Below, in pieces: positions 3,602-38,221 of a DNA stretch of 38,221 nucleotides. Origin of the DNA: an uncultured Gammaproteobacteria bacterium (GTDB lineage: Bacteria > Patescibacteriota > Patescibacteriia > 2-01-FULL-39-33); the NCBI GenBank assembly GCA_964573235.1, contig CAZNIV010000005.1, positions 1 to 38,221 on the forward strand, in the 5' to 3' direction. Within the stretch, counting starts at the first letter, position 1, and every line of letters starts with the position of its first letter. A program made the translations under genes and the position numbers. Below the pieces are notes generated by a model, which worked only from the letters and a program-made list of their open reading frames with translations, did not search any database and had not been told where the DNA came from.

Positions 3602-5785
3602 CTACTTGAAGGATAAAGTACTTAATACTTTATTAAAATCAACTAACGCATTCTGAAAAATCTTTTTATTATCAGTAAGAGCTGTCACGGTAATTGCCAA
3701 AAAATTATTATTAATTTTAATATAATAATCCCTATTGAAAGACAAGATCTTATCTTGACTCACAGTTTTTTCCGTACCATCAAAAATCATAACATCATTA
3801 ATCTCTTTATTCAATTTAAAGTGCGCAATAGTTTTGTCGATTGTATAATTATAGTCAATACTGGCAGTCTTTTGATTACTGGAATTAACCATATCCCTTA
3901 CGGAATTTATGTACTCCTCATTACTTAAGCCACCATCAGCATCGCTAATTTTTTCCAAAGAAAAGCTAACAAAAACTTCTTTATTTTTTTTATTTTGAAT
4001 TTTTAAGGGGCTAGCCTTACTGTTCTGTTTTAAAATAGCCCAATTAACATTCGTTGAAACACTAAATTTAGGTGAATCATTCACGTATTTATGAGTCTCA
4101 GTAAATGTTGTTTTATCGGAGATAATTTTAAATGAATTAACAATACTATCTACCACCTCCTTATCTTTATCATCTTTTCCATAAACATACTCCACCCAAA
4201 CCAAGTATTCTTTTTGAGGAAAAATATAACTATTTAGCATCTTTCCATTTGCCGACAAGGTAATGAGCTTTCCCTTGACATTGTTAATTTTTACTTCTTT
4301 CTCTTTGACTAGTCTTACCAGAGATGAAAAACCAAGATCATTAAAACTTTTTAAAATCATAGGCTTAATATCACCAAGACTAGTTAAGTATGGTGCTCTT
4401 AATAAGTCCACTATAACATAACCACCATCTTTATCATTTTTTTGAAATATCTTAACAATATTCTCTGATTCACTTTTAAAAGTCCAATCAACTGGCTTAT
4501 CTATTGTATAACGAGGATATGGGCTTGATTGAATATATTTATCAACTACTTTTAAAATTTTTTGTTTTCTAGATAAATTAATCATTCTATCTAATAATGA
4601 ACCATCTATGGGGGTTAAATATTTATTCGACTCTACCCAATCAAAAATCGAAGCTGAACTTAATAAAAATCCTAATTGTCCAGACACATCAGAGGCAACT
4701 TGAGTAGTAATTCCAATTACATTACCAATCGAATCAACAGCAGCGCCACCAGAACTACCGAAGGATATAGCCGCATCAGTTTTAATCCAACTATTACCAT
4801 ATTTACTAGCCTTACCACTTATTATCCCACTAGTTATAGTAATCGTATCTCCACCAATTGAAGGATAGCCTATCGTCGTAATCGTATCATTTACTTGACT
4901 TACGTCTGTCTGATTTAAGTGCAAATAAGGGAAAATGGGAACATCATTCCCTCCAGAAGTATCGACTATTTGTAACAAAGCAACGTCTTTATCTTCGTCC
5001 CTAGAAATAAGCTTAGCTAAATAATCACAACTAGGCTCTTCATTAATATTTTTAGTAAGACAAATTTGAAAAGTAGTTTCATAATCACTATTATCATAAT
5101 CGCTCCTTTTAGAAACAACATGGTCATTAGTTAAAATCAAACCAAATGTACCAATAATAATCCCTGATCCTTCCGCTATTTCCTCTAAAACAAAATTTTT
5201 ATTAAGCGCATAAGTTTTTACCTTAACAACCGATTTATAAGCATTTGTATTTAACAACGGGACCACTGCATTTGGCTGACTAACTGGATTAACTGAAACT
5301 ATTGGCTGATTAACTAGGTTAACTGACACTGTTGGCTGACTAGCTTGATTAACTGGGGTACTCAAAGGGGCCTGATTTGAACCACTGGCTGGATTTATAT
5401 CAAAAAAACCACTATCTATAACGATTGAACCGACCCCCTTATGATAAGCAATAACTTCAATCTGATAATTAATGCCAGATGAAAAAGTGCTGGGAATAAT
5501 CCAATCATACGAACCCGTAGTATTGGTTATTTCAACATCTTTACCAAATACTATCCAGTCTAAACAACTTGGGCATGACTTATAGCCTATCGTTACCATG
5601 TCGACATTAACTTGATTCCATTTTATAGTTATTTTTTCACCAACAGAAAAAGTTTCGCCACCGATCGGAGAAACAAGAGAAACCACTGGATCGCCAGTAG
5701 TGGCAAAAACTTGATGGGTACACAAAAAATTAGAAACCAACAAAAAAACCGCTACGGCTAATCCAGAAAAAAATTTCTTAATCAT
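3602..5785 (-). CDS. Secreted multidomain trypsin-like serine protease (S1 family)
   Basis: 727 aa. It has an N-terminal signal peptide (MIKKFFSGLAVAVFLLVSNFLCTHQVFA) and a catalytic triad context TNDHVV (His), DVALLQI (Asp), GSSGGA (Ser, GDSGG-like). A Q/P/V/S/N-rich linker is encoded by tandem DNA repeats, and C-terminal domains are unassigned. Confidence 0.7.
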   Translation of the reverse strand: MIKKFFSGLAVAVFLLVSNFLCTHQVFATTGDPVVSLVSPIGGETFSVGEKITIKWNQVNVDMVTIGYKSCPSCLDWIVFGKDVEITNTTGSYDWIIPSTFSSGINYQIEVIAYHKGVGSIVIDSGFFDINPASGSNQAPLSTPVNQASQPTVSVNLVNQPIVSVNPVSQPNAVVPLLNTNAYKSVVKVKTYALNKNFVLEEIAEGSGIIIGTFGLILTNDHVVSKRSDYDNSDYETTFQICLTKNINEEPSCDYLAKLISRDEDKDVALLQIVDTSGGNDVPIFPYLHLNQTDVSQVNDTITTIGYPSIGGDTITITSGIISGKASKYGNSWIKTDAAISFGSSGGAAVDSIGNVIGITTQVASDVSGQLGFLLSSASIFDWVESNKYLTPIDGSLLDRMINLSRKQKILKVVDKYIQSSPYPRYTIDKPVDWTFKSESENIVKIFQKNDKDGGYVIVDLLRAPYLTSLGDIKPMILKSFNDLGFSSLVRLVKEKEVKINNVKGKLITLSANGKMLNSYIFPQKEYLVWVEYVYGKDDKDKEVVDSIVNSFKIISDKTTFTETHKYVNDSPKFSVSTNVNWAILKQNSKASPLKIQNKKNKEVFVSFSLEKISDADGGLSNEEYINSVRDMVNSSNQKTASIDYNYTIDKTIAHFKLNKEINDVMIFDGTEKTVSQDKILSFNRDYYIKINNNFLAITVTALTDNKKIFQNALVDFNKVLSTLSFK
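5272..5361. repeat. Three tandem ~30-nt repeats (ttggctgac/t taactgg attaactga...) inside the protease gene
   Basis: The direct repeats are visible in the sequence. They encode the peptide repeats VNQPIVSVNP / VSQPNAVVPL / VNQASQPTVS (linker region). Confidence 0.7.
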
Positions 5786-5837: not shown

Positions 5838-5867
5838 AAAAACAAAAAGAAGCTCTTTTCGAGCTTC
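5838..5867 (-). terminator. Rho-independent terminator (minus strand) at the left edge of the GC-rich island
   Basis: Hairpin GAAGCTC-ttttc-GAGCTTC (5849-5867). On the minus strand it is followed by TTTTTGTTTTT. Confidence 0.55.
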
Positions 5868-5881
5868 CGCAGAATGCTGAT

Positions 5882-6073
5882 TTACTTCAGTAAAAATCCC
5901 GAAACGGCGGCTTGAACCAGTTCTGGACCGACTAAACTGTACGTGATCCAAGCCACGACTATTATAAACGGCACGACAAGCATAATTGTGGTCGCTAACC
6001 ATTGAGAGCGATGACGCCCCCGACCCCAGGAAATGTTGTGACAATCGTATTTTTCAATCCCCAGAATGGTCAT
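5882..6073 (-). CDS. Small hydrophobic (single predicted TM) protein of unknown function
   Basis: 63 aa with the hydrophobic stretch TIMLVVPFIIVVAWITYSLV. Its start overlaps the stop of the upstream HTH gene by 4 nt (ATGA), which suggests translational coupling. GC-rich island codon usage. Confidence 0.45.
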   Translation of the reverse strand: MTILGIEKYDCHNISWGRGRHRSQWLATTIMLVVPFIIVVAWITYSLVGPELVQAAVSGFLLK

Positions 6074-6273
6074 GACTTTTTACCCTCCATTGGCGATGTA
6101 GCGATCATGTGGCTTTCTAAAAATGCCACTAGATCCTTTTCAAATACTCGGTAGGTTTTGTGGCCGATTTTGGCGGCTCGCAATTCGCCCGCACTAATCC
6201 AACGGTACACAGTCTTTAGACTGACCTTCATTAGCGCTGACACCTCCTCAATTGTGAGTATTTGGTTAGCCAT
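6070..6273 (-). CDS. Helix-turn-helix DNA-binding protein, excisionase (Xis/AlpA/MerR-like) family
   Basis: 67 aa. LTIEEVSALMKVSLKTVYRWISAGELRAAKIGHKTYRV matches the excisionase-type HTH pattern (Lx-Ex-Ax-lxvSxxTvyrwixxGxlpaxkiGxxxRi). Confidence 0.65.
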   Translation of the reverse strand: MANQILTIEEVSALMKVSLKTVYRWISAGELRAAKIGHKTYRVFEKDLVAFLESHMIATSPMEGKKS

Positions 6274-6299
6274 TAACTCTTTTTCGATAAGATAGCGGA

Positions 6300-6590
6300 C
6301 AAGCTCTTTATCTCACTTTGCACCTTCCATGTGCTGTTTATAGTGTATGACTTATGTACTTAATTGTCAACAATAAGTTATGCACAGGGTTTATTTATTT
6401 TTAATTATAATTAATAGATTATTATAAATAGCTTATTATTATCTTAAATAACTATTTATTCTTAATTTAATCTATTTAATATTATTAAGATGTATTAATA
6501 TACTATCAGATATTATTATATGATTATTATTCTTTATTGTTCTTAATTGTCTAGTAATAAATAATAAATTATTCAAAAATAACGATAACC
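6300..6590. other. Extremely AT-rich (~12-15% GC) 290-bp tract separating the divergent island transcription units
   Basis: Direct reading shows runs of ATTATTA/TTAAT/TAAATA motifs. The tract is flanked by GC-rich coding DNA. Confidence 0.8.
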
Positions 6591-6592
6591 AT

Positions 6593-6697
6593 TGACTTTT
6601 TGCCAAAAATATGCTAGTCTAAACTGTTTGAATCGAACGGGCTTCATGTGAAGTTCGCGGTTATTCAAACAATCAAGTGTCCATTACAAGGAGTTAA
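6593..6697 (+). promoter_or_regulatory. Putative promoter (TTGACT -35; weak TAGTCT -10) and strong RBS (AAGGAG, 9 nt before the ATG) for the SPFH gene
   Basis: TTGACT at 6593-6598. AAGGAG at about 6688-6693, ahead of the ATG at 6703. Confidence 0.35.
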
Positions 6698-6702
6698 TTA
6701 TC

Positions 6703-8571
6703 ATGCCAAGCATCAGCAACACAGCAATCATGTGGATCAGTATTGTAGTGGGAGCGATCGTCCTGATCGCCTGCTACAAACTCCTCCTTCGCCTCTTCGG
6801 CGTGATCATCGTGCCGGAGGACAGCATCGGCATCGTCAACAAGCGATTCGTCATCTTCGGGGCAAATAAAACACTGCCCGATGGTGAAGTGGTCGCCATG
6901 AAAGGCGAGGCCGGCCTGCAAGCCGACACCCTGCCACCGGGACTGCACTTCCTGTATTGGCCATGGCAATACACGATCAGATTCCAAGGGTTTATCACCA
7001 TTGATGACGACAAAATCGGCATCGTGGAAGCTCGTGGCGGTAACGCCCTGACCAACGGTCGCGTGCTCGCCAAGCAGGTGGATTGCGACTCCTTCCAGGA
7101 TGTACGTAAATTCCTCGGCAATGGCGGCCAACGCGGTCCACAAATTGCGGTCATCCCACCGGGAACTTACCGCATCAACACCGAGTTCTTCTCAATTAAC
7201 CCAGCCAGTGTGCTGGAAATCGAGGATAACAAGGTTGGCATCGTCACCGTCAAGGACGGCGAGCCACTGACTACTGGCGAAATTGCCGGTAAGGAAATTG
7301 CTGGACACAACATGTTCCAGGAAGGCGAGAAGTTTATCATTGCCGGCGGCCATCGTGGCCTACAGGAGCAAGTACTTCTGGCTGGACGGTACTTCATCAA
7401 TCCGCGGTTCGCCACGGTGGACACTGTGGACATGACAACCGTGCCGATTGCCAATGTTGGCGTCGTGATTGCTTACGTCGGTGAAACCGGCGTCGACGTC
7501 ACTGGCGACCACTTCAAGCACGGCAACATGGTGAAAAAGGGGCAGAAAGGCGTCTGGGTCGATCCTCTCGATCCGGGAAAATACGCCATTAATATCCTGA
7601 CGCACAAGGTAGAAGCGGTGCCAACTGCCAATATCGTGCTCAACTGGGCCAATGGAAAGACCGAAGCGCACAATCTGGACAAAAACTTGTCCACGATCAC
7701 CGTGCGGTCGGCCGACGGATTCACATTCAATCTGGATGTGAGCCAAATCATACACATCCCGCGCGCCGATGCCCCCAAGGTCATCGCCAGATTCGGCAGT
7801 GTGGCCAACCTGGTCACACAGGTGCTTGAGCCAACCATCGGCAACTACTTCCGCAATACGGCGCAAAACAGTGACGTCATCGACTTCCTGAAGCATCGCA
7901 CGGCGCGACAAGAAGAAGCCAGGGCGGCAATTGCCAAGGCCCTTCAAGAGTATAATGTCGTCGCGGTGGACACCCTAATCGGTGACATCAACCCGCCGGC
8001 AGAACTCATGAAGACGCTCACCGACCGCAAGATCGCAGAGCAAGCGAAGGTAACCTACGACACACAAAAACTCGCGCAGGTTACGAGGCAGGAGCTGGAA
8101 GAAGCGACCGCCCGAGCCAACACCCAGGCGCGCGTCGTCGATGCGGAACGGCAAGTCGCCATCAAAACATTTGAGGCTAACGCCAATATCGAACAGGCCA
8201 AGGGTACGGCCGCAGCCAAGCGTGTGGAAGCAGACGCTGAAGGCTATCGTGTTACCACCATTGGAAACGCCGAGGGTGGTAAGATTGAAGTCATTGGTCT
8301 GGCCGAAGCGAAGGTCACCAAGGCCAAAATTGACTCCATGGAAGCCAACAACTACGCGGCCATCAAGGTGGCGGAAGCTTTGGCTGGTGCCGGCATCAAG
8401 CTGGTTCCCGACGTCATGGTTGTCGGTGGCAATGGCAGCAACGGCGGCGGAACACTGGTCGATGTTCTCCTGGCCAATACGATCAGGGATCAGTTGACCA
8501 GGGCAGCAAGCAAGACGGAAGCGGAAAAAACCACTACCACCGTCGAACCGGGAAAACCGGCCAGCAAGTAA
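6703..8571 (+). CDS. SPFH/band-7 domain membrane protein, flotillin-like (YqiK/FloT-like)
   Basis: 622 aa with an N-terminal TM helix (IMWISIVVGAIVLIACYKLLL) and an SPFH start pattern (VPEDSIGIVNKRFV...PPGLHFLYWPW). The C-terminal Ala/Glu-rich coiled-coil flotillin region (EEATARANTQARVVDAERQ...AEAKVTKAKIDSMEANNYAAIKVAEALAGAGIKLVPDVMVVGG) resembles the C-termini of bacterial flotillins. High-GC codon usage. Confidence 0.7.
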   Translation: MPSISNTAIMWISIVVGAIVLIACYKLLLRLFGVIIVPEDSIGIVNKRFVIFGANKTLPDGEVVAMKGEAGLQADTLPPGLHFLYWPWQYTIRFQGFITIDDDKIGIVEARGGNALTNGRVLAKQVDCDSFQDVRKFLGNGGQRGPQIAVIPPGTYRINTEFFSINPASVLEIEDNKVGIVTVKDGEPLTTGEIAGKEIAGHNMFQEGEKFIIAGGHRGLQEQVLLAGRYFINPRFATVDTVDMTTVPIANVGVVIAYVGETGVDVTGDHFKHGNMVKKGQKGVWVDPLDPGKYAINILTHKVEAVPTANIVLNWANGKTEAHNLDKNLSTITVRSADGFTFNLDVSQIIHIPRADAPKVIARFGSVANLVTQVLEPTIGNYFRNTAQNSDVIDFLKHRTARQEEARAAIAKALQEYNVVAVDTLIGDINPPAELMKTLTDRKIAEQAKVTYDTQKLAQVTRQELEEATARANTQARVVDAERQVAIKTFEANANIEQAKGTAAAKRVEADAEGYRVTTIGNAEGGKIEVIGLAEAKVTKAKIDSMEANNYAAIKVAEALAGAGIKLVPDVMVVGGNGSNGGGTLVDVLLANTIRDQLTRAASKTEAEKTTTTVEPGKPASK

Positions 8572-8599
8572 ACATCCACTTCAAGGATGAATAACCCAT

Positions 8600-8626
8600 A
8601 CGGGCAGACTATCTGCCCGTTTTTTA
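8600..8626 (+). terminator. Rho-independent terminator after the SPFH gene
   Basis: ACGGGCAGA-cta-TCTGCCCGT followed by TTTTTT. Confidence 0.75.
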
Positions 8627-8650
8627 ATTGTAAAATTACTATTATCCTGA

Positions 8651-8679
8651 TTGACAATAGCTATAAAAAGTGATAATCT
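8651..8679 (+). promoter_or_regulatory. Sigma70-like promoter (TTGACA, 17-nt spacer, TAATCT) upstream of the acidic repeat protein. The RBS AAGGAGA lies 8 nt before the ATG at 8744.
   Basis: Read directly: ttgacaatagctataaaaagtgataatct. Confidence 0.5.
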
Positions 8680-8743
8680 TGGCTGTTAGTTCTTTCACAT
8701 TCTATTCATATAAAAACAAGCAAAAACAACAAGGAGAAGCATC

Positions 8744-10423
8744 ATGAGTATCTGGTCAAAACTTTCTTCCTGGCTAGACGCCATCCGCGGTAATCAAAAA
8801 ACGCAACAGTATCGTCCAAGGCCTATGGCCAGTAAAACGGTTGAACGAAAAACCAGCCTCGACCCCATTCCCAAAATGGAAAAAGCGGAACCGACATCAA
8901 GAGAAGAGCAGACTGTCAAAGCTATTTTGGAAACAATCGGCGACGACAACGAAGATTTGGTTAGAAGGGTTTTGGGAAATAAACCGTCCAGGCCCGGAAC
9001 GCCAAGTCTCCGCGAAAAATTCTTCGCGGCCACCACTGTCGAGGAATTACTTGAGATCCGAAAAAAGGTTCAGCTGGAAAGCGAACTGGAACGTCAAGTC
9101 AATCAAAAAATTGACGACCTGCTCCGGCGCGAACTGGAACAATCATCATCAATCGACGAATGTCTGGATGTTTACGAAAAATCACCGCCCAAAAGCGCGA
9201 TCGAGAAATTGGCCGCCGAAAAAATTCTCAGCCTAATTCAGGATGAGAATGACTGCCAAGAAGTTATTGACGAAAGTCCGTCGAACAGTTGGCTGGAAAC
9301 CCAAGCCAAGCAAAAGAAAAAAAAGCTGCTTCTGGAAAAAATCCGCACTGCCACCAACATCGATGACCTGATGGAAATCGATCTGAAAGGTTTTACGGAT
9401 GACCCGGAAATCAATCAGCAATTCAACGCTCAAGTTTTGGCTTTGACCAAGACCACTAAAGATTGCCTAAGCATCTGCGAAGATCATGATCTGAGCGACG
9501 AGCTGAAACTGCAATTACTGACCAAGGCGCTTGAGCTGACCGTCGGTGAAGATGAGTGCGTGGAAATTTTCCAAAACACCGACGATGATTCGCTACAAGA
9601 AAAAGCGGCCATGCGAGCTATCACCATCGCCGAAACCGTAGAAGATCGTTTATCGGCCATCGAAGAAATGTCGATGGATGAAGACTTGAAAGAAAAGTTA
9701 CTGCAAGCAATTTTGGCTACCGCCGAAACTCCTGAAGACTGCCACCGCGTGTTTTTAGCGGCGACATCCGACAGTGAAATCGAAAAGCAAGCGATCAAAA
9801 AAGCCACTGGCCTGGTCAATTCCTTCAGTGAGTGCGAAAAAATCTTTGATGATCAGCTTCACTGGGACGAGGTTCTGGAAAGGCTACTGGAACTGGCCAC
9901 CAACGAAGATGAATACCTGGTCGTCATCGAACAGGCTGAGGGTGAATACGGGAATGATGAAATAGCACAAAAGGCGTATGAGAAATTACTGACCGTGGTC
10001 AACAATTTCGAAAAATGCCAAAAGTACTACTACAACTGCCCCGACGAGCTCAAGCCATGGTTTTTGGAAAAAGCGCTAACCCTGGTTGCCATCATTGAAG
10101 ATTGCAACTGGGTCCATGAGGAATCCGAAAGTGACAGCGATTTGGAAAAATTGGCCGGCGATAAACTCGACGCCATGATTCTGGGAGAACTGCCCACCGC
10201 TAATTCCTTTGACGAATGCCTGGATCTTTTTGAAACCACTCTCACTGATGGTCCAGCAGAATGGCCGACATTCGAAAAAGCACTAGCCCTGACGACAACC
10301 GTCAAGCAATGTGCTCGGCTTTACCAAGTTGCGACCAACTACTACGAAGATCATCAGGAAATGGCCCATCGCTGTATCCGAAAAATGGCGGAAATTATCC
10401 GAATGCAAGGCTTTCGGAATTAA
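8744..10423 (+). CDS. Highly acidic helical-repeat protein with about 13 tandem ~31-residue repeats, each bearing a conserved [DE]-[DE]-C-x-x-[IVL]-[FY] motif. Function unknown.
   Basis: 559 aa and very D/E-rich. Cys at 140, 171, 241, 272, 333, 364, 425, 454, 492 and 523, mostly spaced 29-31 residues apart (two larger steps, 70 and 61, are about two units each). The repeat-opening motifs are IDECLDVY, ENDCQEVI, TKDCLSIC, EDECVEIF, PEDCHRVF, FSECEKIF, FEKCQKYY, IEDCNWVH, FDECLDLF and VKQCARLY. The tails are helix-like (EKALALT, EKLLQAILATA). Degenerate units lack the Cys (VEDRLSAIEE, NEDEYLVVIE). Confidence 0.6.
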   Translation: MSIWSKLSSWLDAIRGNQKTQQYRPRPMASKTVERKTSLDPIPKMEKAEPTSREEQTVKAILETIGDDNEDLVRRVLGNKPSRPGTPSLREKFFAATTVEELLEIRKKVQLESELERQVNQKIDDLLRRELEQSSSIDECLDVYEKSPPKSAIEKLAAEKILSLIQDENDCQEVIDESPSNSWLETQAKQKKKKLLLEKIRTATNIDDLMEIDLKGFTDDPEINQQFNAQVLALTKTTKDCLSICEDHDLSDELKLQLLTKALELTVGEDECVEIFQNTDDDSLQEKAAMRAITIAETVEDRLSAIEEMSMDEDLKEKLLQAILATAETPEDCHRVFLAATSDSEIEKQAIKKATGLVNSFSECEKIFDDQLHWDEVLERLLELATNEDEYLVVIEQAEGEYGNDEIAQKAYEKLLTVVNNFEKCQKYYYNCPDELKPWFLEKALTLVAIIEDCNWVHEESESDSDLEKLAGDKLDAMILGELPTANSFDECLDLFETTLTDGPAEWPTFEKALALTTTVKQCARLYQVATNYYEDHQEMAHRCIRKMAEIIRMQGFRN

Positions 10424-10446
10424 TATTCGCCCAACACCGCCCCACA

Positions 10447-10485
10447 GAGGACTAGCGCATCGACGCTATCCTCTTTTTTATTTTT
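10447..10485 (+). terminator. Rho-independent terminator for the acidic-protein gene
   Basis: GAGGA(c)TAGCG-catcga-CGCTATCCTC stem followed by TTTTTTATTTTT. Confidence 0.65.
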
Positions 10486-10516
10486 CCAAAATAAAAAGCG
10501 GATCCCAATGATCCGC
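10486..10516 (-). terminator. Rho-independent terminator for the convergent 219-aa gene
   Basis: Perfect inverted repeat GCGGATC-ccaat-GATCCGC (10498-10516). On the minus strand it is followed by TTTTTATTTTGG. Confidence 0.65.
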
Positions 10517-10523
10517 AAAACTT

Positions 10524-11183
10524 TCAACCTTCCAAATTAAATTCCAATTGCTCAGATCGCCCAACGCGCGCCCAGCAAGAAGGAAAGGAGATTCCTGGCA
10601 ACACCTGATCCAGCCTTTTCTCCTCCATTAGTGGAGCATCGTAGTGTGTTAAGCCAATAACCGGGAAACAATCTTCTCGTCCTCTCACCATCGAACCAAT
10701 TGCCCCCGTACCCAGCCAATTTGGCTGAGCGGTAAACAAATAATGATATTGAGTGGCTAAAGCAATATTTTCAGCACAAGTCAGTGGATAGCCCTGACAT
10801 TTAGCAATAGCCATGACTCCTGACTGAGCCTGACCGGAATCATTGGCCACCAATTCAAACCCGGTTCTCACCTTGATGGCAAAATAAGGTTCTACTGACA
10901 CCAAGTACCGATCAGTTACATCACCTTGTTTAATGTAACTATTACCACCCATACCACTGCGATAAACCGTTTGCATTTGCACGGCAGGACCGAATATTGA
11001 GAGTGGCACCACTGCCAGTAAGGGTATTTCCCCTTCAGTAAACTGCAAACTCTCGGCGCGAAAAACAGCTGCCGACATAACCTGGCGCAAACCATCAATA
11101 TGCCGACCATAACTGGTGTGCTCACGCAGATAATCAATCTGCGTCGTTGCTACTTTTTGTAGCTCTACTGACGAAAAACGCAT
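10524..11183 (-). CDS. Hypothetical protein (219 aa) encoded in the GC-rich island. No family recognised.
   Basis: GC-rich ORF with a strong RBS (AAAGGAG, 7 nt before the ATG) and its own terminator. Contains a conserved-looking Cys (IAKCQGY) and His (LTHYDAP), but I cannot assign a fold. Confidence 0.5.
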   Translation of the reverse strand: MRFSSVELQKVATTQIDYLREHTSYGRHIDGLRQVMSAAVFRAESLQFTEGEIPLLAVVPLSIFGPAVQMQTVYRSGMGGNSYIKQGDVTDRYLVSVEPYFAIKVRTGFELVANDSGQAQSGVMAIAKCQGYPLTCAENIALATQYHYLFTAQPNWLGTGAIGSMVRGREDCFPVIGLTHYDAPLMEEKRLDQVLPGISFPSCWARVGRSEQLEFNLEG

Positions 11184-11282
11184 GATTGACTCCTTTCTAA
11201 ACTGATTTCAATTTAAGGTGCATCATTAACTGATAATTCAAACTAACAAAAATCAAAATATTTAGCAAATATCCCAAAAACA

Positions 11283-35893: not shown

Positions 35894-38221
35894 CTATTCT
35901 TGTGGCGAAGCAACTGGATCAGCCGGAGCAGATTCTGCCGGAGCTTCTGGGGTTGTCTCTGGCACCACGGGAGCTGGATCGATCACAACGACGGGATCGG
36001 GCTCAACTACTGGCTCAACAACAACTGGGGCCACTGGAGCCGGATCAGTGCTAGTTGTCACAACTGGATCGGTTGAAGTAGCTACAACAACTGGAGTGGT
36101 TGTAGTCTCTGCGGTGGTAGAGGTTTCTACTATTGGTGTAGTAACTACGGGAGTAACAACTGGCGCTGGGGATGAATTACCACATTCACCCGGGGTGGTA
36201 ATAGTTACACCACTCTTTATCTTTAAGCAATATGGCGCTTTAGTATCTTCGTCGTACATAGTAATGCCAGTCGGTTTATCAGCGGAACCAATGGTTAATC
36301 TTTCAACTACGATATTTTTTAAGTAAGCAATGCCATTTTCAATCTTAGCAATAAAAGAACCAATTTCTTTAAGAGCATTAACTACTGTAGCTAAAATTGG
36401 GCGATCCGATAAGGTTAGGTAACCAATAGAATTAGTAGCTACCGCTTCTGGAATAGCTAATTGAACATTCTGAGCAGAGAAACCGGTATAAGTAGAAGAG
36501 GCATCAAAGCCCGTTTCTGGCTTCCAATTATAATTGATCGGATTAACTTTTTGTAAATCAGCTAAGCCACGAGTAAAATTATTTTGAACGTCTTTTAATC
36601 TTTCATCGGAAGATACGGTTAAATTACCATTAGCATCACTAGTAACTGTACCCGAACCTAAAGAGGCCAAACGAACAGAACCAGCAACAGTTAATTGGGC
36701 CGATGGGGTAGAGGTACCAATGCCCAACCTACCCCCAAAGAATGATGACGTAGTAGTACCCAATACTGATAAGGCACCATCAGTACCGATACCACCTAAG
36801 CCCACTATTAAAGCATTATTAACAAATAAATCGGTACCTACGGAGATAGTTCTAGTTGTCTGAATATTGTCTGATTTTAGAATGCCCGCGTACAAAGAAC
36901 CAATTTCTGCGCCCTGTAAGTCATAAACGGAAACGGTCGAATAAATATCTCCCACATATAAATAACGCCCAGAACCCACACACCAAGTGCGATAACCCCC
37001 AATGGTTACCCTTGGCAATATTTCTGTTGGAGCGCTTGGATTAGTAATATCCATGATAGACATATCATTACCGTGAGTATTAAGAATATAAGCATAATGA
37101 CCAACTACATAGAAAGTTTCTGGATAATTACCCGCTGAAATGCTTGATAACAAAACCGGATTAGTTGGATCAGTCACATTAATAACAGAAAAACTATTGG
37201 AATTTCTACCAATCGTATATAAATAACCATCAGAAATAGTGCTCCTAAACTGATCTGCGGCCAATCCACTAGTAATGGATCCGACTATATTGGCATTAAT
37301 AGGATCGATAATGTCCAAAACATACAAAAAGCCTGGGGCAAGACTGGCGCCACTGACATAGGCATATCTACCCTTTACTGATAACCAGTTAGGCGTACTA
37401 GCAAACGTTATGGTTTTAATTATTTGCATAGAAGTGGGATTGGAAATATCCACAATTTTTAAATCATTGCCAGATAAAGCATATAAATATCTACCATTAA
37501 CCACAATTGGATTAGCATTGGCAAGAGATGTCATAGAAACAATTGTTGGATTTTTTGGATTAGATACATCAATCGAATAAACACTGGAAGGGCTACCAAC
37601 AAAAGCATATCGACCAGAAATCGCCAACGAATAAGCACTGACGCCCAAGTCAATTGAACCTATTAAAACCGGCTTAGTAGAGCTAGAGATATCAGAAACT
37701 CTAAAGCCACCATCATAGCCAATAGTGTATAAATAATTACCCACCGTCTGCATACCATAAACAAAACCTCCACCAATATTGGTTGAGCCGGCTAATACCG
37801 GGAGATTAGTTGATGAAGGCAATCCGGTAGTAAAACGACCGGTGACACTCAGTCGTTGAACGGTTTCATTAGTACCGCCAAGCGCTGTCGCCCACCGAGT
37901 ACCCGTTGCCGTGGACTGCAAAAACTGACCAACGGTTCCCGTAGCATAAGTAGAATCAAACAATGAACCCGTTAAATACATATTGCCAGCAACAGCAAGT
38001 TTTTGAGAAGGAGTAGAGGTACCAATACCAACATTATTTAATAAATCAATTGTTAATGCGGGAACAGCCGAAGATGTACTACTAACGCCAAACATTATTT
38101 TCTGAGTACTTGTCGCTCTAAAAATCGTATCACCAGCAATACTCCCAGAAAGGATTGACCCTGCTCCAGAAGCTAAGCCAAAAATTAATTTTTCGGACAG
38201 ATCTTGAGAAAGTCCAATAAG
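35894..38221 (-). CDS. Large secreted/surface protein with LVIVD-like beta-propeller repeats and a Pro/Thr/Val-rich C-terminal tail. N-terminus lies outside the window.
   Basis: The ORF stays open in frame through the window end (42 further sense codons upstream of the tracked Met). Repeated units such as RYAFVGS...VYSIDVSNP, RYLYAL...LKIVDISNP and GYLYTIG. The C-terminal low-complexity PAPVVTPVVTTPIVETSTT...EPVVEPDPVV is encoded by repetitive DNA at 35900-36200. Confidence 0.65.
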   Translation of the reverse strand, partial: LIGLSQDLSEKLIFGLASGAGSILSGSIAGDTIFRATSTQKIMFGVSSTSSAVPALTIDLLNNVGIGTSTPSQKLAVAGNMYLTGSLFDSTYATGTVGQFLQSTATGTRWATALGGTNETVQRLSVTGRFTTGLPSSTNLPVLAGSTNIGGGFVYGMQTVGNYLYTIGYDGGFRVSDISSSTKPVLIGSIDLGVSAYSLAISGRYAFVGSPSSVYSIDVSNPKNPTIVSMTSLANANPIVVNGRYLYALSGNDLKIVDISNPTSMQIIKTITFASTPNWLSVKGRYAYVSGASLAPGFLYVLDIIDPINANIVGSITSGLAADQFRSTISDGYLYTIGRNSNSFSVINVTDPTNPVLLSSISAGNYPETFYVVGHYAYILNTHGNDMSIMDITNPSAPTEILPRVTIGGYRTWCVGSGRYLYVGDIYSTVSVYDLQGAEIGSLYAGILKSDNIQTTRTISVGTDLFVNNALIVGLGGIGTDGALSVLGTTTSSFFGGRLGIGTSTPSAQLTVAGSVRLASLGSGTVTSDANGNLTVSSDERLKDVQNNFTRGLADLQKVNPINYNWKPETGFDASSTYTGFSAQNVQLAIPEAVATNSIGYLTLSDRPILATVVNALKEIGSFIAKIENGIAYLKNIVVERLTIGSADKPTGITMYDEDTKAPYCLKIKSGVTITTPGECGNSSPAPVVTPVVTTPIVETSTTAETTTTPVVVATSTDPVVTTSTDPAPVAPVVVEPVVEPDPVVVIDPAPVVPETTPEAPAESAPADPVASPQE

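What the first reader, a model, noticed from the sequence alone, without database searches (positions are those of the whole stretch)
8744..10423. 559-aa hyper-acidic protein made of about 13 tandem 31-residue repeats, each opening with an invariant [DE][DE]-C-xx-[IVL]-[FY] motif
The periodicity was counted directly from the translation. Cys residues fall at 140, 171, 241, 272, 333, 364, 425, 454, 492 and 523, with degenerate Cys-less units at ~206, ~302 and ~395. Each unit looks like a helix-turn-helix solenoid module whose tail resembles EKALxLTxxx. I do not recognise this as TPR (34 aa), Sel1 (36 aa), ankyrin (33 aa) or a classical HEAT repeat. A 31-residue acidic Cys-bearing repeat is unusual. 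The regular array of single Cys residues could hold metals, form a redox or disulfide ladder, or bind polycations. The gene directly follows the SPFH/flotillin gene and may function with it.
Basis: seen in the sequence. Interest (0 to 1): 0.75.

Follow-up and report, generated by a model that had tools for sequence, protein, structure and literature searches.

The report
Acidic helical-repeat protein, uncatalogued CPR family
The gene encodes a real, strongly acidic protein built from about 15 copies of a 31-residue two-helix unit; the unit belongs to a small, unnamed repeat family whose three named members are all Parcubacteria, its cysteines look like buried packing residues rather than a metal or redox array, and nothing ties it functionally to the flotillin-like gene next door.

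Summary
ORF 8744-10423 (+) encodes a 559-aa protein (pI 4.5, net charge -49). It has a 31-residue periodicity far above chance and 12-15 recognisable units. All ten listed Cys positions are correct.

The motif is not invariant: only 10 of 15 units carry the Cys. AlphaFold models give an alpha-solenoid of helix hairpins. No Pfam, NCBIfam, PADLOC, PHROG or PDB family matches it.

An exhaustive profile search found about 47 related protein clusters built from the same unit (T-[FV]-[DE]-E-C-L-x-[VI]-Y-x-x-A-P-x-[GD]-S-E-L-x-x-x-A-L-E-K-A-L-x-L-A) and sharing a C-terminal cap. The three named relatives are all Parcubacteria (CPR).

In relatives the Cys position is often W, A, Y or L, and six relatives have no Cys. 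The position falls in the never-charged hydrophobic stripe of helix A. It is therefore most likely a core residue, not a ligand.

The SPFH link is unsupported. A strong terminator and a separate promoter and RBS lie between the two genes. None of 15 SPFH orthologue loci carries a repeat gene, and neither of the two relatives' neighbourhoods recovered carries SPFH.

Most likely it is a divergent, expanded, acidic member of an uncatalogued solenoid family that acts as a protein-binding scaffold. It sits on a small horizontally acquired island. Interest is modest.

The parts
8600..8626 (+). Intrinsic terminator of the upstream SPFH gene (ACGGGCAGA-CTA-TCTGCCCGT followed by TTTTTT). It separates the SPFH gene from the repeat gene.
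   Evidence: 9 pairs, 6 GC, loop 3, T-run; sequence read
8651..8679 (+). Promoter-like site for the repeat gene: TTGACA, 17-nt spacer, TAATCT, with TG two bases upstream of the -10 element.
   Evidence: read from the sequence. It was not listed by the strict scan (TAATCT matches 4 of 6 positions of the TATAAT consensus), so it is an inferred element.
8732..8737 (+). Shine-Dalgarno sequence AAGGAG, 7 nt before the ATG
8744..10423 (+). CDS of the 559-aa acidic repeat protein (P0001)
   Evidence: identical gene on three further public contigs
8747..8791 (+). Residues 2-16, SIWSKLSSWLDAIRG: an N-terminal, Trp-rich, moderately amphipathic helix (muH 0.46, mean H 0.10). A possible peripheral membrane or partner anchor; inferred only.
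8792..8896 (+). Residues 17-51: a Pro-rich, net-basic linker predicted to be disordered (8 K+R, 4 D+E, 5 P; pLDDT 28-46)
8942..10399 (+). Residues 67-552: an array of about 15 helix-hairpin units of 27-38 aa (mode 31). Helix A is about 10 aa and carries the Cys position. Helix B is about 14 aa and ends in EKALxL.
10295..10399 (+). Residues 518-552: the C-terminal capping unit (TTVKQCARLY...HRCIRKMAEII). It is colinear with the family cap 'HSPxAYxCIRKIAEIL'.
   Evidence: it is the most amphipathic helix in the protein
10453..10485 (+). Weak terminator-like hairpin and T-run after the repeat gene. The convergent 219-aa gene has its own terminator at 10498-10516 on the minus strand.

Best explanation
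The gene encodes a cytoplasmic alpha-solenoid. It is a divergent, unusually long and unusually acidic member of a small, uncatalogued family of 31-residue helix-hairpin repeat proteins. The named members of that family are all Parcubacteria/Paceibacterota (CPR bacteria).

Each unit is a short helix A (T-x-[DE]-E-C-L-x-[VI]-Y), a turn (A-P-x-G-S in relatives, acidic and Ser-rich here) and a longer helix B (E-L-x-x-x-A-L-E-K-A-L-x-L-A). Units stack into a superhelix that is closed by a conserved C-terminal capping helix.

Shown by sequence: the single Cys per unit occupies a never-charged position in the hydrophobic stripe of helix A, and relatives replace it with W, A, Y or L. Inferred from that: it is a buried packing residue, not a ligand.

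Shown by sequence: the extra negative charge sits at unit positions 8, 11, 12, 14, 16 and 17, that is, at the end of helix A and in the A-B turn. Inferred: these form an acidic ridge along one edge of the solenoid.

Inferred function: like other helical-hairpin solenoids, it acts as a non-enzymatic binding scaffold, probably for a basic protein or peptide partner. It may be held near the membrane, or auto-regulated, by its N-terminal amphipathic helix and basic disordered linker.

The gene is transcribed from its own promoter and lies on a roughly 5.3-kb island of foreign base composition. It is not an operon partner of the adjacent SPFH gene.
For: Repeat reality.

Family: an exhaustive search of 1.84 billion representatives with the unit profile gave 51 other proteins at E <= 1e-3. 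About 47 are clearly built from the same unit, with 2-12 copies each. Direct BLASTP of P0001 against P0007 gives 26% identity over 250 aa, E 9e-14, running colinearly into the C-terminal cap. Against P0037 the E-value is 3e-14.

Taxonomy of named members: OHB14250.1 (Candidatus Zambryskibacteria), MDB5194359.1 (Parcubacteria group) and MFA6553963.1 (Candidatus Paceibacterota).

No curated family.

Cys as a core residue.

Acidic edge.

Own transcription unit.

Foreign island: GC3 is 0.52 for this gene, 0.68 for SPFH and 0.24-0.36 for host genes.

Architecture parallel: the two other most similar acidic members have an N-terminal hydrophobic element plus a long linker. P0037 has a true TM helix followed by RKKK, and P0034 starts with GKLLDLLLGR.
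Against: No experimental or co-occurrence evidence identifies a partner, so the binding-scaffold function rests on fold class only.

Model coordinates could not be inspected. Burial of the Cys is therefore inferred from sequence pattern and substitution spectrum, not measured.

The N-terminal helix is only moderately amphipathic (89th percentile within a protein made of amphipathic helices).

The family was collected with a profile derived from this protein alone, in a single pass. Its true size, range and typical neighbourhood are therefore poorly sampled. Genomic context was obtained for only two relatives.

The C-terminal half of the full-length model is of low confidence (pLDDT 53-67).
Confidence: 0.6

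Rival explanations
1. It is a functional partner of the neighbouring SPFH/flotillin-like protein. In this reading the acidic solenoid is recruited to the cytoplasmic face of the membrane by its N-terminal amphipathic helix. It then serves as cargo or adaptor of the SPFH microdomain or cage, and the two genes were acquired together as a cassette.
For: The genes are adjacent and on the same strand within one GC-rich island. The protein has an N-terminal amphipathic helix plus a basic linker. The acidic relative P0037 is anchored by a TM helix. The SPFH protein has an N-terminal TM segment.
Against: A strong terminator and a separate promoter and RBS lie between the genes. GC3 differs (0.68 against 0.52), which suggests different donors or acquisition times. 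None of 15 SPFH orthologue loci has a family member within about 6 kb. Neither of the two relatives' neighbourhoods recovered contains SPFH. The conserved partner of prokaryotic SPFH genes is NfeD, and many SPFH subfamilies are single cistrons (PMC2636767).
Confidence: 0.12
2. It is a mobile-element or defence-associated accessory protein. It could be an acidic nucleic-acid mimic or decoy that titrates a DNA-binding or basic protein, such as a restriction enzyme or nucleoid protein, or an immunity or antitoxin-like binder.
For: The protein has net charge -49, and the excess acidic residues fall at the end of helix A and in the A-B turn. It lies on a horizontally acquired island next to an excisionase-type HTH_17 gene. 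The Zambryskibacteria relative sits among HEPN_AbiU2, RhuM-Fic, SocA_Panacea, LexA/S24-methyltransferase and NYN genes. The P0040 relative sits next to an SMC-like AAA_15/AAA_23 ATPase, an RNA ligase and a PRTase. Sequence divergence and copy-number variation across the family are wide.
Against: There is no PADLOC or PHROG hit. tblastn finds no match in 50,697 phage or 72,556 plasmid records, and a motif scan of viral contigs found nothing. Family pI ranges from 4.2 to 9.9, so acidity is not a family trait. The charge density (-8.8 per 100 aa) is, from my own knowledge, well below that of classical DNA mimics such as Ocr. The context evidence rests on two loci.
Confidence: 0.15
3. It is a metal-binding, redox or disulfide-ladder protein in which the regularly spaced Cys residues are the functional groups.
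For: Ten Cys residues lie at the same unit position. Cys is the commonest residue in that column across the family (40 of 67 units).
Against: The substitutes at that column are W, A, Y, L, I and R, not H, D or E. Six family members have no Cys. The position lies in the uncharged hydrophobic stripe. There is one Cys per 31-aa unit and no second conserved ligand. In alpha-solenoids equivalent positions of adjacent units are roughly 8-10 A apart (general knowledge), which is too far for disulfides. There is no signal peptide, so the protein sits in a reducing cytoplasm.
Confidence: 0.05
4. It is a spurious or decaying ORF, or an assembly chimera, with no functional product.
For: The protein's 90%-identity cluster contains a single sequence. 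Its base composition is foreign to the host.
Against: A 1.68-kb open frame with an RBS and promoter is present. The protein is homologous to about 47 other protein clusters, including a colinear cap. The AF2 solenoid is confident without an MSA. The sequence is 100% identical on three further public contigs from different samples. One of them spans the right island junction and one reaches the left edge.
Confidence: 0.03

Closest known systems
Uncharacterised Parcubacteria hypothetical proteins built from the same unit: OHB14250.1 / UniRef100_A0A1G2UXZ8 (Candidatus Zambryskibacteria, 280 aa), MDB5194359.1 (Parcubacteria group, 259 aa) and MFA6553963.1 (Candidatus Paceibacterota, 198 aa)
   Same: They share the same 31-residue unit (with occasional 38-residue units carrying an extended helix B), the same consensus T-[FV]-[DE]-E-C-L-x-[VI]-Y...S-E-L...A-L-E-K-A-L-x-L-A, and the same C-terminal cap (...C-I-R-K-[IM]-A-E-I-[IL]). 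BLASTP gives 26% identity with E 9e-14.
   Different: The window protein is among the longest members (559 aa against a typical 95-350) and has the most units (about 15 against 2-12). It is among the most acidic. It has lost the A-P-x-G-S turn in favour of acidic and Ser-rich loops. It also replaces the family's usual N-terminal module ('M-D-x-E-x-L-V-x-x-I-x-x-I-L-G...Q-I-R-x-A-L-G-V-P') with an amphipathic helix plus a disordered basic linker.
Tetratricopeptide (TPR) and half-a-TPR (HAT) repeats
   Same: Both are antiparallel two-helix hairpins stacked into a superhelix. Both have small or hydrophobic residues at the helix-packing positions. Both serve as protein-binding scaffolds. Natural TPR and HAT proteins appear among the structural matches.
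   Different: The unit is 31 rather than 34 residues, with a shorter helix A. The W4-L7-G8-Y11...A20-F24-A27-P32 signature is absent. Pfam TPR models do not reach threshold: the best is TPR_7 at E 0.13, in 2 of 48 members.
De novo designed helical repeat proteins (for example DHR49, PDB 5cwj) and synthetic alpha-solenoids
   Different: They have no evolutionary relationship to the window protein (9-21% identity). They only show that the fold is a generic, idealised helix-hairpin solenoid.
PBS-lyase / E-Z type HEAT-like repeats (PF03130, PF13646)
   Same: They have a period of about 30-31 residues and form a two-helix solenoid (from my own knowledge of the family; a lead, not a test).
   Different: No Pfam HEAT-family hit for this protein or for any of 48 relatives at E <= 1. 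The consensus is different, lacking the Arg/Ala/Leu-Gly signature.

Membership tests
Unnamed Parcubacteria 31-residue helix-hairpin repeat family (defined here) | Tandem units matching the consensus T-[FVI]-[DE]-[EQD]-[C/W/A/Y]-L-x-[VI]-[YF] ... S-[ED]-[LIV] ... A-L-x-K-[AIM]-[LI]-x-L | tested here: met
   An HMM built from relatives' units only scores the protein 126.7 bits, marks 12-14 units, and scores shuffles at most 7.6 bits.
Unnamed Parcubacteria 31-residue helix-hairpin repeat family (defined here) | Conserved C-terminal capping unit ending ...[AC]-[IM]-[RK]-[RKT]-[IM]-[AG]-E-[IL]-[IL] | tested here: met
   HRCIRKMAEII aligns colinearly with DMCIRTIAEIL of P0007. The same cap occurs in P0003, P0005, P0011, P0015, P0018, P0034, P0037 and P0046.
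Unnamed Parcubacteria 31-residue helix-hairpin repeat family (defined here) | A-P-x-[GD]-S turn between helices A and B | tested here: not met
   Relatives have P at position 14 in 33 of 67 units and S at position 17 in 43 of 67. Here the turn is acidic and Ser-rich (KSPPKS, ESPSNS, NTDDDS, ESESDS, MSMDED). This is a divergent feature of this member.
Unnamed Parcubacteria 31-residue helix-hairpin repeat family (defined here) | Host lineage is CPR/Parcubacteria | tested here: inconclusive
   The window's proteins are labelled only 'MAG ... [bacterium]' (MEI6627181.1). The low-GC, aaRS-rich chromosome is compatible with CPR, but taxonomy was not established. The gene's own composition is foreign to the host.
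TPR (Pfam clan CL0020: TPR_1, TPR_2, TPR_7, TPR_8 and others) | 34-residue unit matching the Pfam TPR models at gathering threshold | tested here: not met
   The period is 31. There is no TPR hit for the protein. The best hit among 48 relatives is TPR_7 at E 0.13 and 12.9 bits, against a cut-off of 27.9.
Sel1-like repeat (PF08238) | 36-44-residue unit matching the Pfam model | tested here: not met
   No hit at E <= 1 in the protein or among the most frequently matched families of 48 relatives.
HEAT / PBS-lyase HEAT-like / Armadillo | Pfam HEAT-clan model match | tested here: not met
Ankyrin repeat | 33-residue unit with a beta-hairpin/loop and TPLH motif; Pfam Ank models | tested here: not met
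   No Pfam hit. The model is all-helical with no beta elements.
NfeD-type SPFH operon partner | NfeD domain (membrane-anchored OB-fold protein) encoded in one operon with the SPFH gene (PMC2636767) | tested here: not met
   No NfeD Pfam hit. The fold is all-alpha. A terminator and a separate promoter lie between the genes. The literature basis is.
Cys-based metal-binding or redox repeat proteins | Ligand or redox Cys conserved across homologues, or replaced by other ligands, with two or more ligands per site | tested here: not met
   The Cys column reads C40, A8, W8, Y5, L2, R2. Six homologues have no Cys. There is one Cys per unit. Metal content itself cannot be tested with these tools.
Known anti-phage defence or anti-defence proteins | Match to PADLOC-DB or PHROG models, or presence in phage or plasmid records | tested here: not met

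The most novel reading that the evidence does not exclude
The protein is the founding, best-resolved example of a lineage-restricted repeat family seen so far mainly in Parcubacteria. Its acidic, membrane-tethered members (this protein, P0034 and P0037) would act as polyanionic decoys or adaptors at the cytoplasmic membrane. They might sequester a basic DNA-binding or invading protein, or load cargo into the co-acquired SPFH cage. In that case the small island would be a new two-component membrane-organising or defence cassette moved between phyla.
Probability: 0.1. Interest if true: 0.6.

Novelty: new variant of a known kind. Interest (0 to 1): 0.3.

Why it matters
CPR/Patescibacteria genomes are full of lineage-specific proteins with no annotation. 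This analysis defines one such family: a unit consensus, a cap, about 47 member clusters and a confident fold class. It is absent from Pfam and NCBIfam and could be turned into a domain model.

The analysis also corrects two tempting over-interpretations. A regular Cys array need not mean metal or redox chemistry. Adjacency to an SPFH gene need not mean functional coupling.

The practical value is better annotation, and a natural, short-loop, 31-residue solenoid that resembles designed helical repeat proteins. The biological pay-off would rise only if the acidic, membrane-anchored subgroup turns out to have a specific partner.

Tried and rejected
- The word-indexed homologue search with the full protein found only itself. 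With a 48-protein alignment it returned only four proteins because of the 8000-candidate limit. The index is insensitive for this low-complexity repeat. Direct phmmer and BLASTP show that P0007 is a clear homologue.
- A degenerate DNA pattern for 'EKALxLAxTx[DE]EC' found nothing in viral contigs. In JGI metagenomes it found two loci, one of them the known P0007 contig.
- The AFDB Foldseek library was unavailable.
- Sequence searches of the PDB gave only chance or designed-protein hits.
- Among weak Pfam matches, DUF6898 (5 of 48 members, best E 0.019) and Pdase_C33_assoc (3 members) were judged compositional noise and not pursued.
- P0024, P0031 and P0051 from the profile search were discarded as false positives (TPR or unrelated repeats). 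P0035 is only a motif-level match.
- A search for att-like direct repeats flanking the island found only weak 75-79% matches. There is no tRNA and no Rfam hit.
- A mixed alignment intended to improve the fragment model was too gappy and was not used.
- Literature searches found no description of the family.
Full report
**The observation**

The ORF at 8744-10423 (+) is real. It starts with ATG, has AAGGAG 7 nt upstream, and encodes 559 codons. The product has 117 D+E and 68 K+R residues, giving net charge -49 and pI 4.54. It has 13 Cys. Three more Cys (245, 432, 544) lie outside the motif position.

A BLOSUM62 autocorrelation of residues 101-559 peaks at lag 31 (z = 6.2). Secondary peaks fall at 61 and 38. 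No lag in 500 shuffles exceeded z = 4.06. I divided the protein into 15 units of 27-38 residues, most often 31. Ten units carry the Cys. Five have L, L, L, R or Y in its place.

The array is therefore real and far above chance, but the '[DE][DE]-C-xx-[IVL]-[FY]' motif is frequent rather than invariant. There is no DNA-level tandem repeat, so the units are old and diverged (13-39% identity to the reference unit in the unit alignment).

**Fold**

AlphaFold2 without an alignment gives an all-helical solenoid. Its mean pLDDT is 69.7, with 80-89 across residues 130-360. Residues 13-50 are predicted to be disordered. A five-unit fragment (residues 204-358) folds with pLDDT 83.9 and pTM 0.71. Each unit is a helix of about 10 residues that contains the Cys position, a 3-5-residue turn, and a helix of about 14 residues.

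**Known families**

The protein has no hit above threshold in Pfam-A, NCBIfam, PADLOC or PHROGs. Sequence searches of the PDB return nothing meaningful. By sequence it is not TPR, Sel1, HEAT or ankyrin.

**Relatives**

The word-indexed search found only the protein itself. An exhaustive HMMER scan of 1.84 billion cluster representatives with the 31-position unit profile found 51 other proteins at E <= 1e-3, eight at E <= 1e-10, counting the query itself. After I discarded three clear false positives and one motif-only match, about 47 remain. They are 94-696 aa long and contain 2-12 copies of the same unit.

The consensus over 67 aligned units is t-T-[FV]-[DE]-E-C-L-k-[VI]-Y-x-n-A-P-x-[DG]-S-E-L-x-x-x-A-L-E-K-A-L-x-L-A. 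Many members also share a C-terminal cap ('HSPxAYxCIRKIAEIL'). The window protein's HRCIRKMAEII aligns colinearly with it. BLASTP against P0007 gives 26% identity over 250 residues, E 9e-14. Against P0037 it gives E 3e-14.

A unit HMM built only from the relatives scores the window protein 126.7 bits, against at most 7.6 bits for shuffles.

The three members that carry names are all CPR. They are OHB14250.1 (Candidatus Zambryskibacteria), MDB5194359.1 (Parcubacteria group) and MFA6553963.1 (Candidatus Paceibacterota). Scanning all 48 members against Pfam found no family shared by more than five of them, and none was significant. This is an uncatalogued repeat family.

**What the cysteines are**

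Across the 67 units the Cys column reads C40, A8, W8, Y5, L2, R2. Six family members have no Cys at all.

Per-position statistics show that positions 3, 6, 9, 10, 13, 19, 23, 24, 27, 30 and 31 are almost never charged, either here or in relatives. Within helix A, positions 3, 6/7, 9/10 and 13 form the i, i+3/4, i+7 stripe. Position 6, the Cys, therefore most likely packs in the hydrophobic core.

Replacement by W, A, Y or L rather than H, D or E argues against a metal, redox or disulfide ladder. So do the single Cys per unit and the cytoplasmic location (no signal peptide). I could not inspect model coordinates, so burial is an inference from sequence.

**Where the charge is**

Family pI ranges from 4.2 to 9.9 (median 5.4). 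Strong acidity is therefore a property of a subgroup (this protein, P0002, P0033, P0034, P0037, P0040), not of the family.

In the window protein the excess acidic residues lie at unit positions 8, 11, 12, 14, 16 and 17. These are the end of helix A and the A-B turn, where relatives have N/K-x-A-P-x-G-S. I infer an acidic, Ser-rich ridge along one edge of the solenoid.

The N-terminus differs from the family's usual module. It has a Trp-rich, moderately amphipathic helix (residues 2-16, muH 0.46). A Pro-rich, net-basic disordered linker of about 35 residues follows. The two most similar acidic relatives have an analogous layout. P0037 begins with a true TM helix followed by RKKK and a long linker. 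P0034 begins with a short hydrophobic helix and a basic linker. This hints at membrane proximity, weakly.

**Surroundings and the SPFH question**

The window is a low-GC chromosome (about 35% GC) with Ile-, Arg-, Thr- and Pro-tRNA synthetase genes plus a further class II (Asp/Lys/Asn-type) synthetase gene. Positions ~5880-11200 form an island of 46-56% GC. It contains:
- a 63-aa membrane ORF and an excisionase-type HTH_17 gene on the minus strand;
- a 350-nt spacer of 13-21% GC;
- the 622-aa SPFH gene (GC3 0.68);
- the repeat gene (GC3 0.52);
- a convergent 219-aa singleton ORF (GC3 0.41).

Host genes have GC3 of 0.24-0.36. Three further public contigs from other samples are 100% identical over the island. 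One spans the right junction.

The SPFH gene ends in a strong intrinsic terminator at 8600-8626. The repeat gene has its own TTGACA/TAATCT promoter-like site and RBS.

Fifteen SPFH relatives (59-67% identity) were recovered from Acidobacteriota, Ignavibacteria, Phycisphaerae, Gammaproteobacteria and Saccharibacteria. They sit in unrelated neighbourhoods, and none has a repeat-family gene nearby.

Conversely, the Zambryskibacteria relative lies among HEPN_AbiU2, RhuM-Fic, SocA_Panacea, LexA/S24-methyltransferase, ClpP and NYN genes. P0040 lies next to a PRTase, an RNA ligase and an SMC-like ATPase. Neither is near an SPFH gene.

The established partner of prokaryotic SPFH genes is NfeD (PMC2636767), which this protein is not. 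The proposed functional link with SPFH is therefore unsupported, though the sample is small and cannot exclude it.

**Most likely mechanism**

Shown:
- a cytoplasmic alpha-solenoid of about 15 helix hairpins;
- membership of an uncatalogued family whose named members are all CPR;
- its own transcription unit;
- residence on a horizontally acquired island.

Inferred:
- The Cys residues are core packing residues.
- The protein works as a non-enzymatic binding scaffold whose acidic loop edge engages a basic partner.
- The N-terminal helix and basic linker may tether it near the membrane, or fold back on the acidic surface.

Rivals and my probabilities:
- SPFH adaptor: 0.12.
- Defence-island decoy or DNA mimic: 0.15. 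This rival is compatible with the contexts of two relatives, but it has no PADLOC, PHROG, phage or plasmid support.
- Cys-based metal or redox array: 0.05.
- Spurious ORF: 0.03.

**Novelty and verdict**

The fold class is ordinary. The sequence family is not in Pfam or NCBIfam, and I found no paper describing it. I rate it a new variant of a known kind: a new helix-hairpin repeat family, with this protein an expanded acidic outlier. Interest is modest (0.3). It would interest people annotating CPR proteomes or studying natural repeat proteins. It does not open a long-standing question unless the acidic, membrane-anchored subgroup proves to have a specific partner.

Noticed in passing
window 5880-11200: A roughly 5.3-kb island of 46-56% GC sits inside a chromosome of about 35% GC, between a trypsin-like protease gene and a GNAT gene. 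It holds five genes with three different GC3 levels (0.68, about 0.50, 0.41), which suggests mosaic horizontal acquisition. No integrase, tRNA or convincing att repeats were found; the only flanking direct repeats are 75-79% matches at 5743-5761/11282-11300 and 5825-5848/11263-11286.
   Followed up: partly
window 6703-8571 (+); loci L004-L018: The 622-aa SPFH/flotillin-like protein has 59-67% identical relatives in Acidobacteriota (Terracidiphilus), Ignavibacteria, Phycisphaerae, Gammaproteobacteria and a Saccharibacteria MAG. Each sits in a different neighbourhood and lacks an NfeD partner. It looks like a stand-alone SPFH gene that moves between phyla.
   Followed up: partly
window 10524-11183 (-): A 219-aa ORF lies convergent with the repeat gene and has its own terminator (10498-10516). 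It has no hit in Pfam, NCBIfam, PHROGs or PDB, and only a chance-level PADLOC match (E 0.009). It is a singleton cluster among 15 billion proteins. Function unknown.
   Followed up: partly
window 5882-6273 (-): A two-gene minus-strand unit comprises an excisionase-type HTH_17 protein (67 aa; TIGR01764 E 1.4e-13; weak similarity to MADS MAD1) overlapping by ATGA a 63-aa ORF with one predicted TM segment. A clean terminator follows at 5848-5868. It is divergent from the SPFH gene across the AT-rich spacer and may regulate the island.
   Followed up: partly
window 6300-6650: An intergenic spacer of 13-21% GC is packed with TTAATA, ATTATTA and TAATAGATTA direct and inverted repeats. It contains many promoter-like hexamers on both strands.
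   Followed up: no
L001 (ENA ERZ27300137 k141_214352) 1-19 and 4717-4778: This public contig carries Nextera transposase adapter sequence at both ends (AGATGTGTATAAGAGACAG / CTGTCTCTTATACACATCTCCGAGCCCACGAGAC...). This is untrimmed adapter in a deposited assembly, not biological variation at the island edges.
   Followed up: yes
protein P0035 (617 aa): A secreted protein repeats 'NPTTFEECLEIYPEHYCL' six times between Pro/Thr-rich linkers and ends in an HEFGH zincin-like domain. Only the helix-A half of the unit is present. This may be a different use of the same motif or a convergent one.
   Followed up: no
L019-L023 (Candidatus Zambryskibacteria MHWX01000019.1 and identical metagenome contigs): The relative P0007 sits in a dense accessory region: HNH, LexA-S24-N6_N4 methyltransferase fusion, HEPN_AbiU2, RhuM-Fic, ClpP, SocA_Panacea and NYN. 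The protein was indexed in 42 blocks of the public collection (24 contigs read). This is a CPR defence/TA island worth its own look.
   Followed up: no
window 35894-38095 (-): A 733-aa protein combines LVIVD repeats or a beta-propeller with a Peptidase_S74 (endosialidase chaperone) domain. This is an unusual surface or tail-fibre-like architecture in the host chromosome.
   Followed up: no
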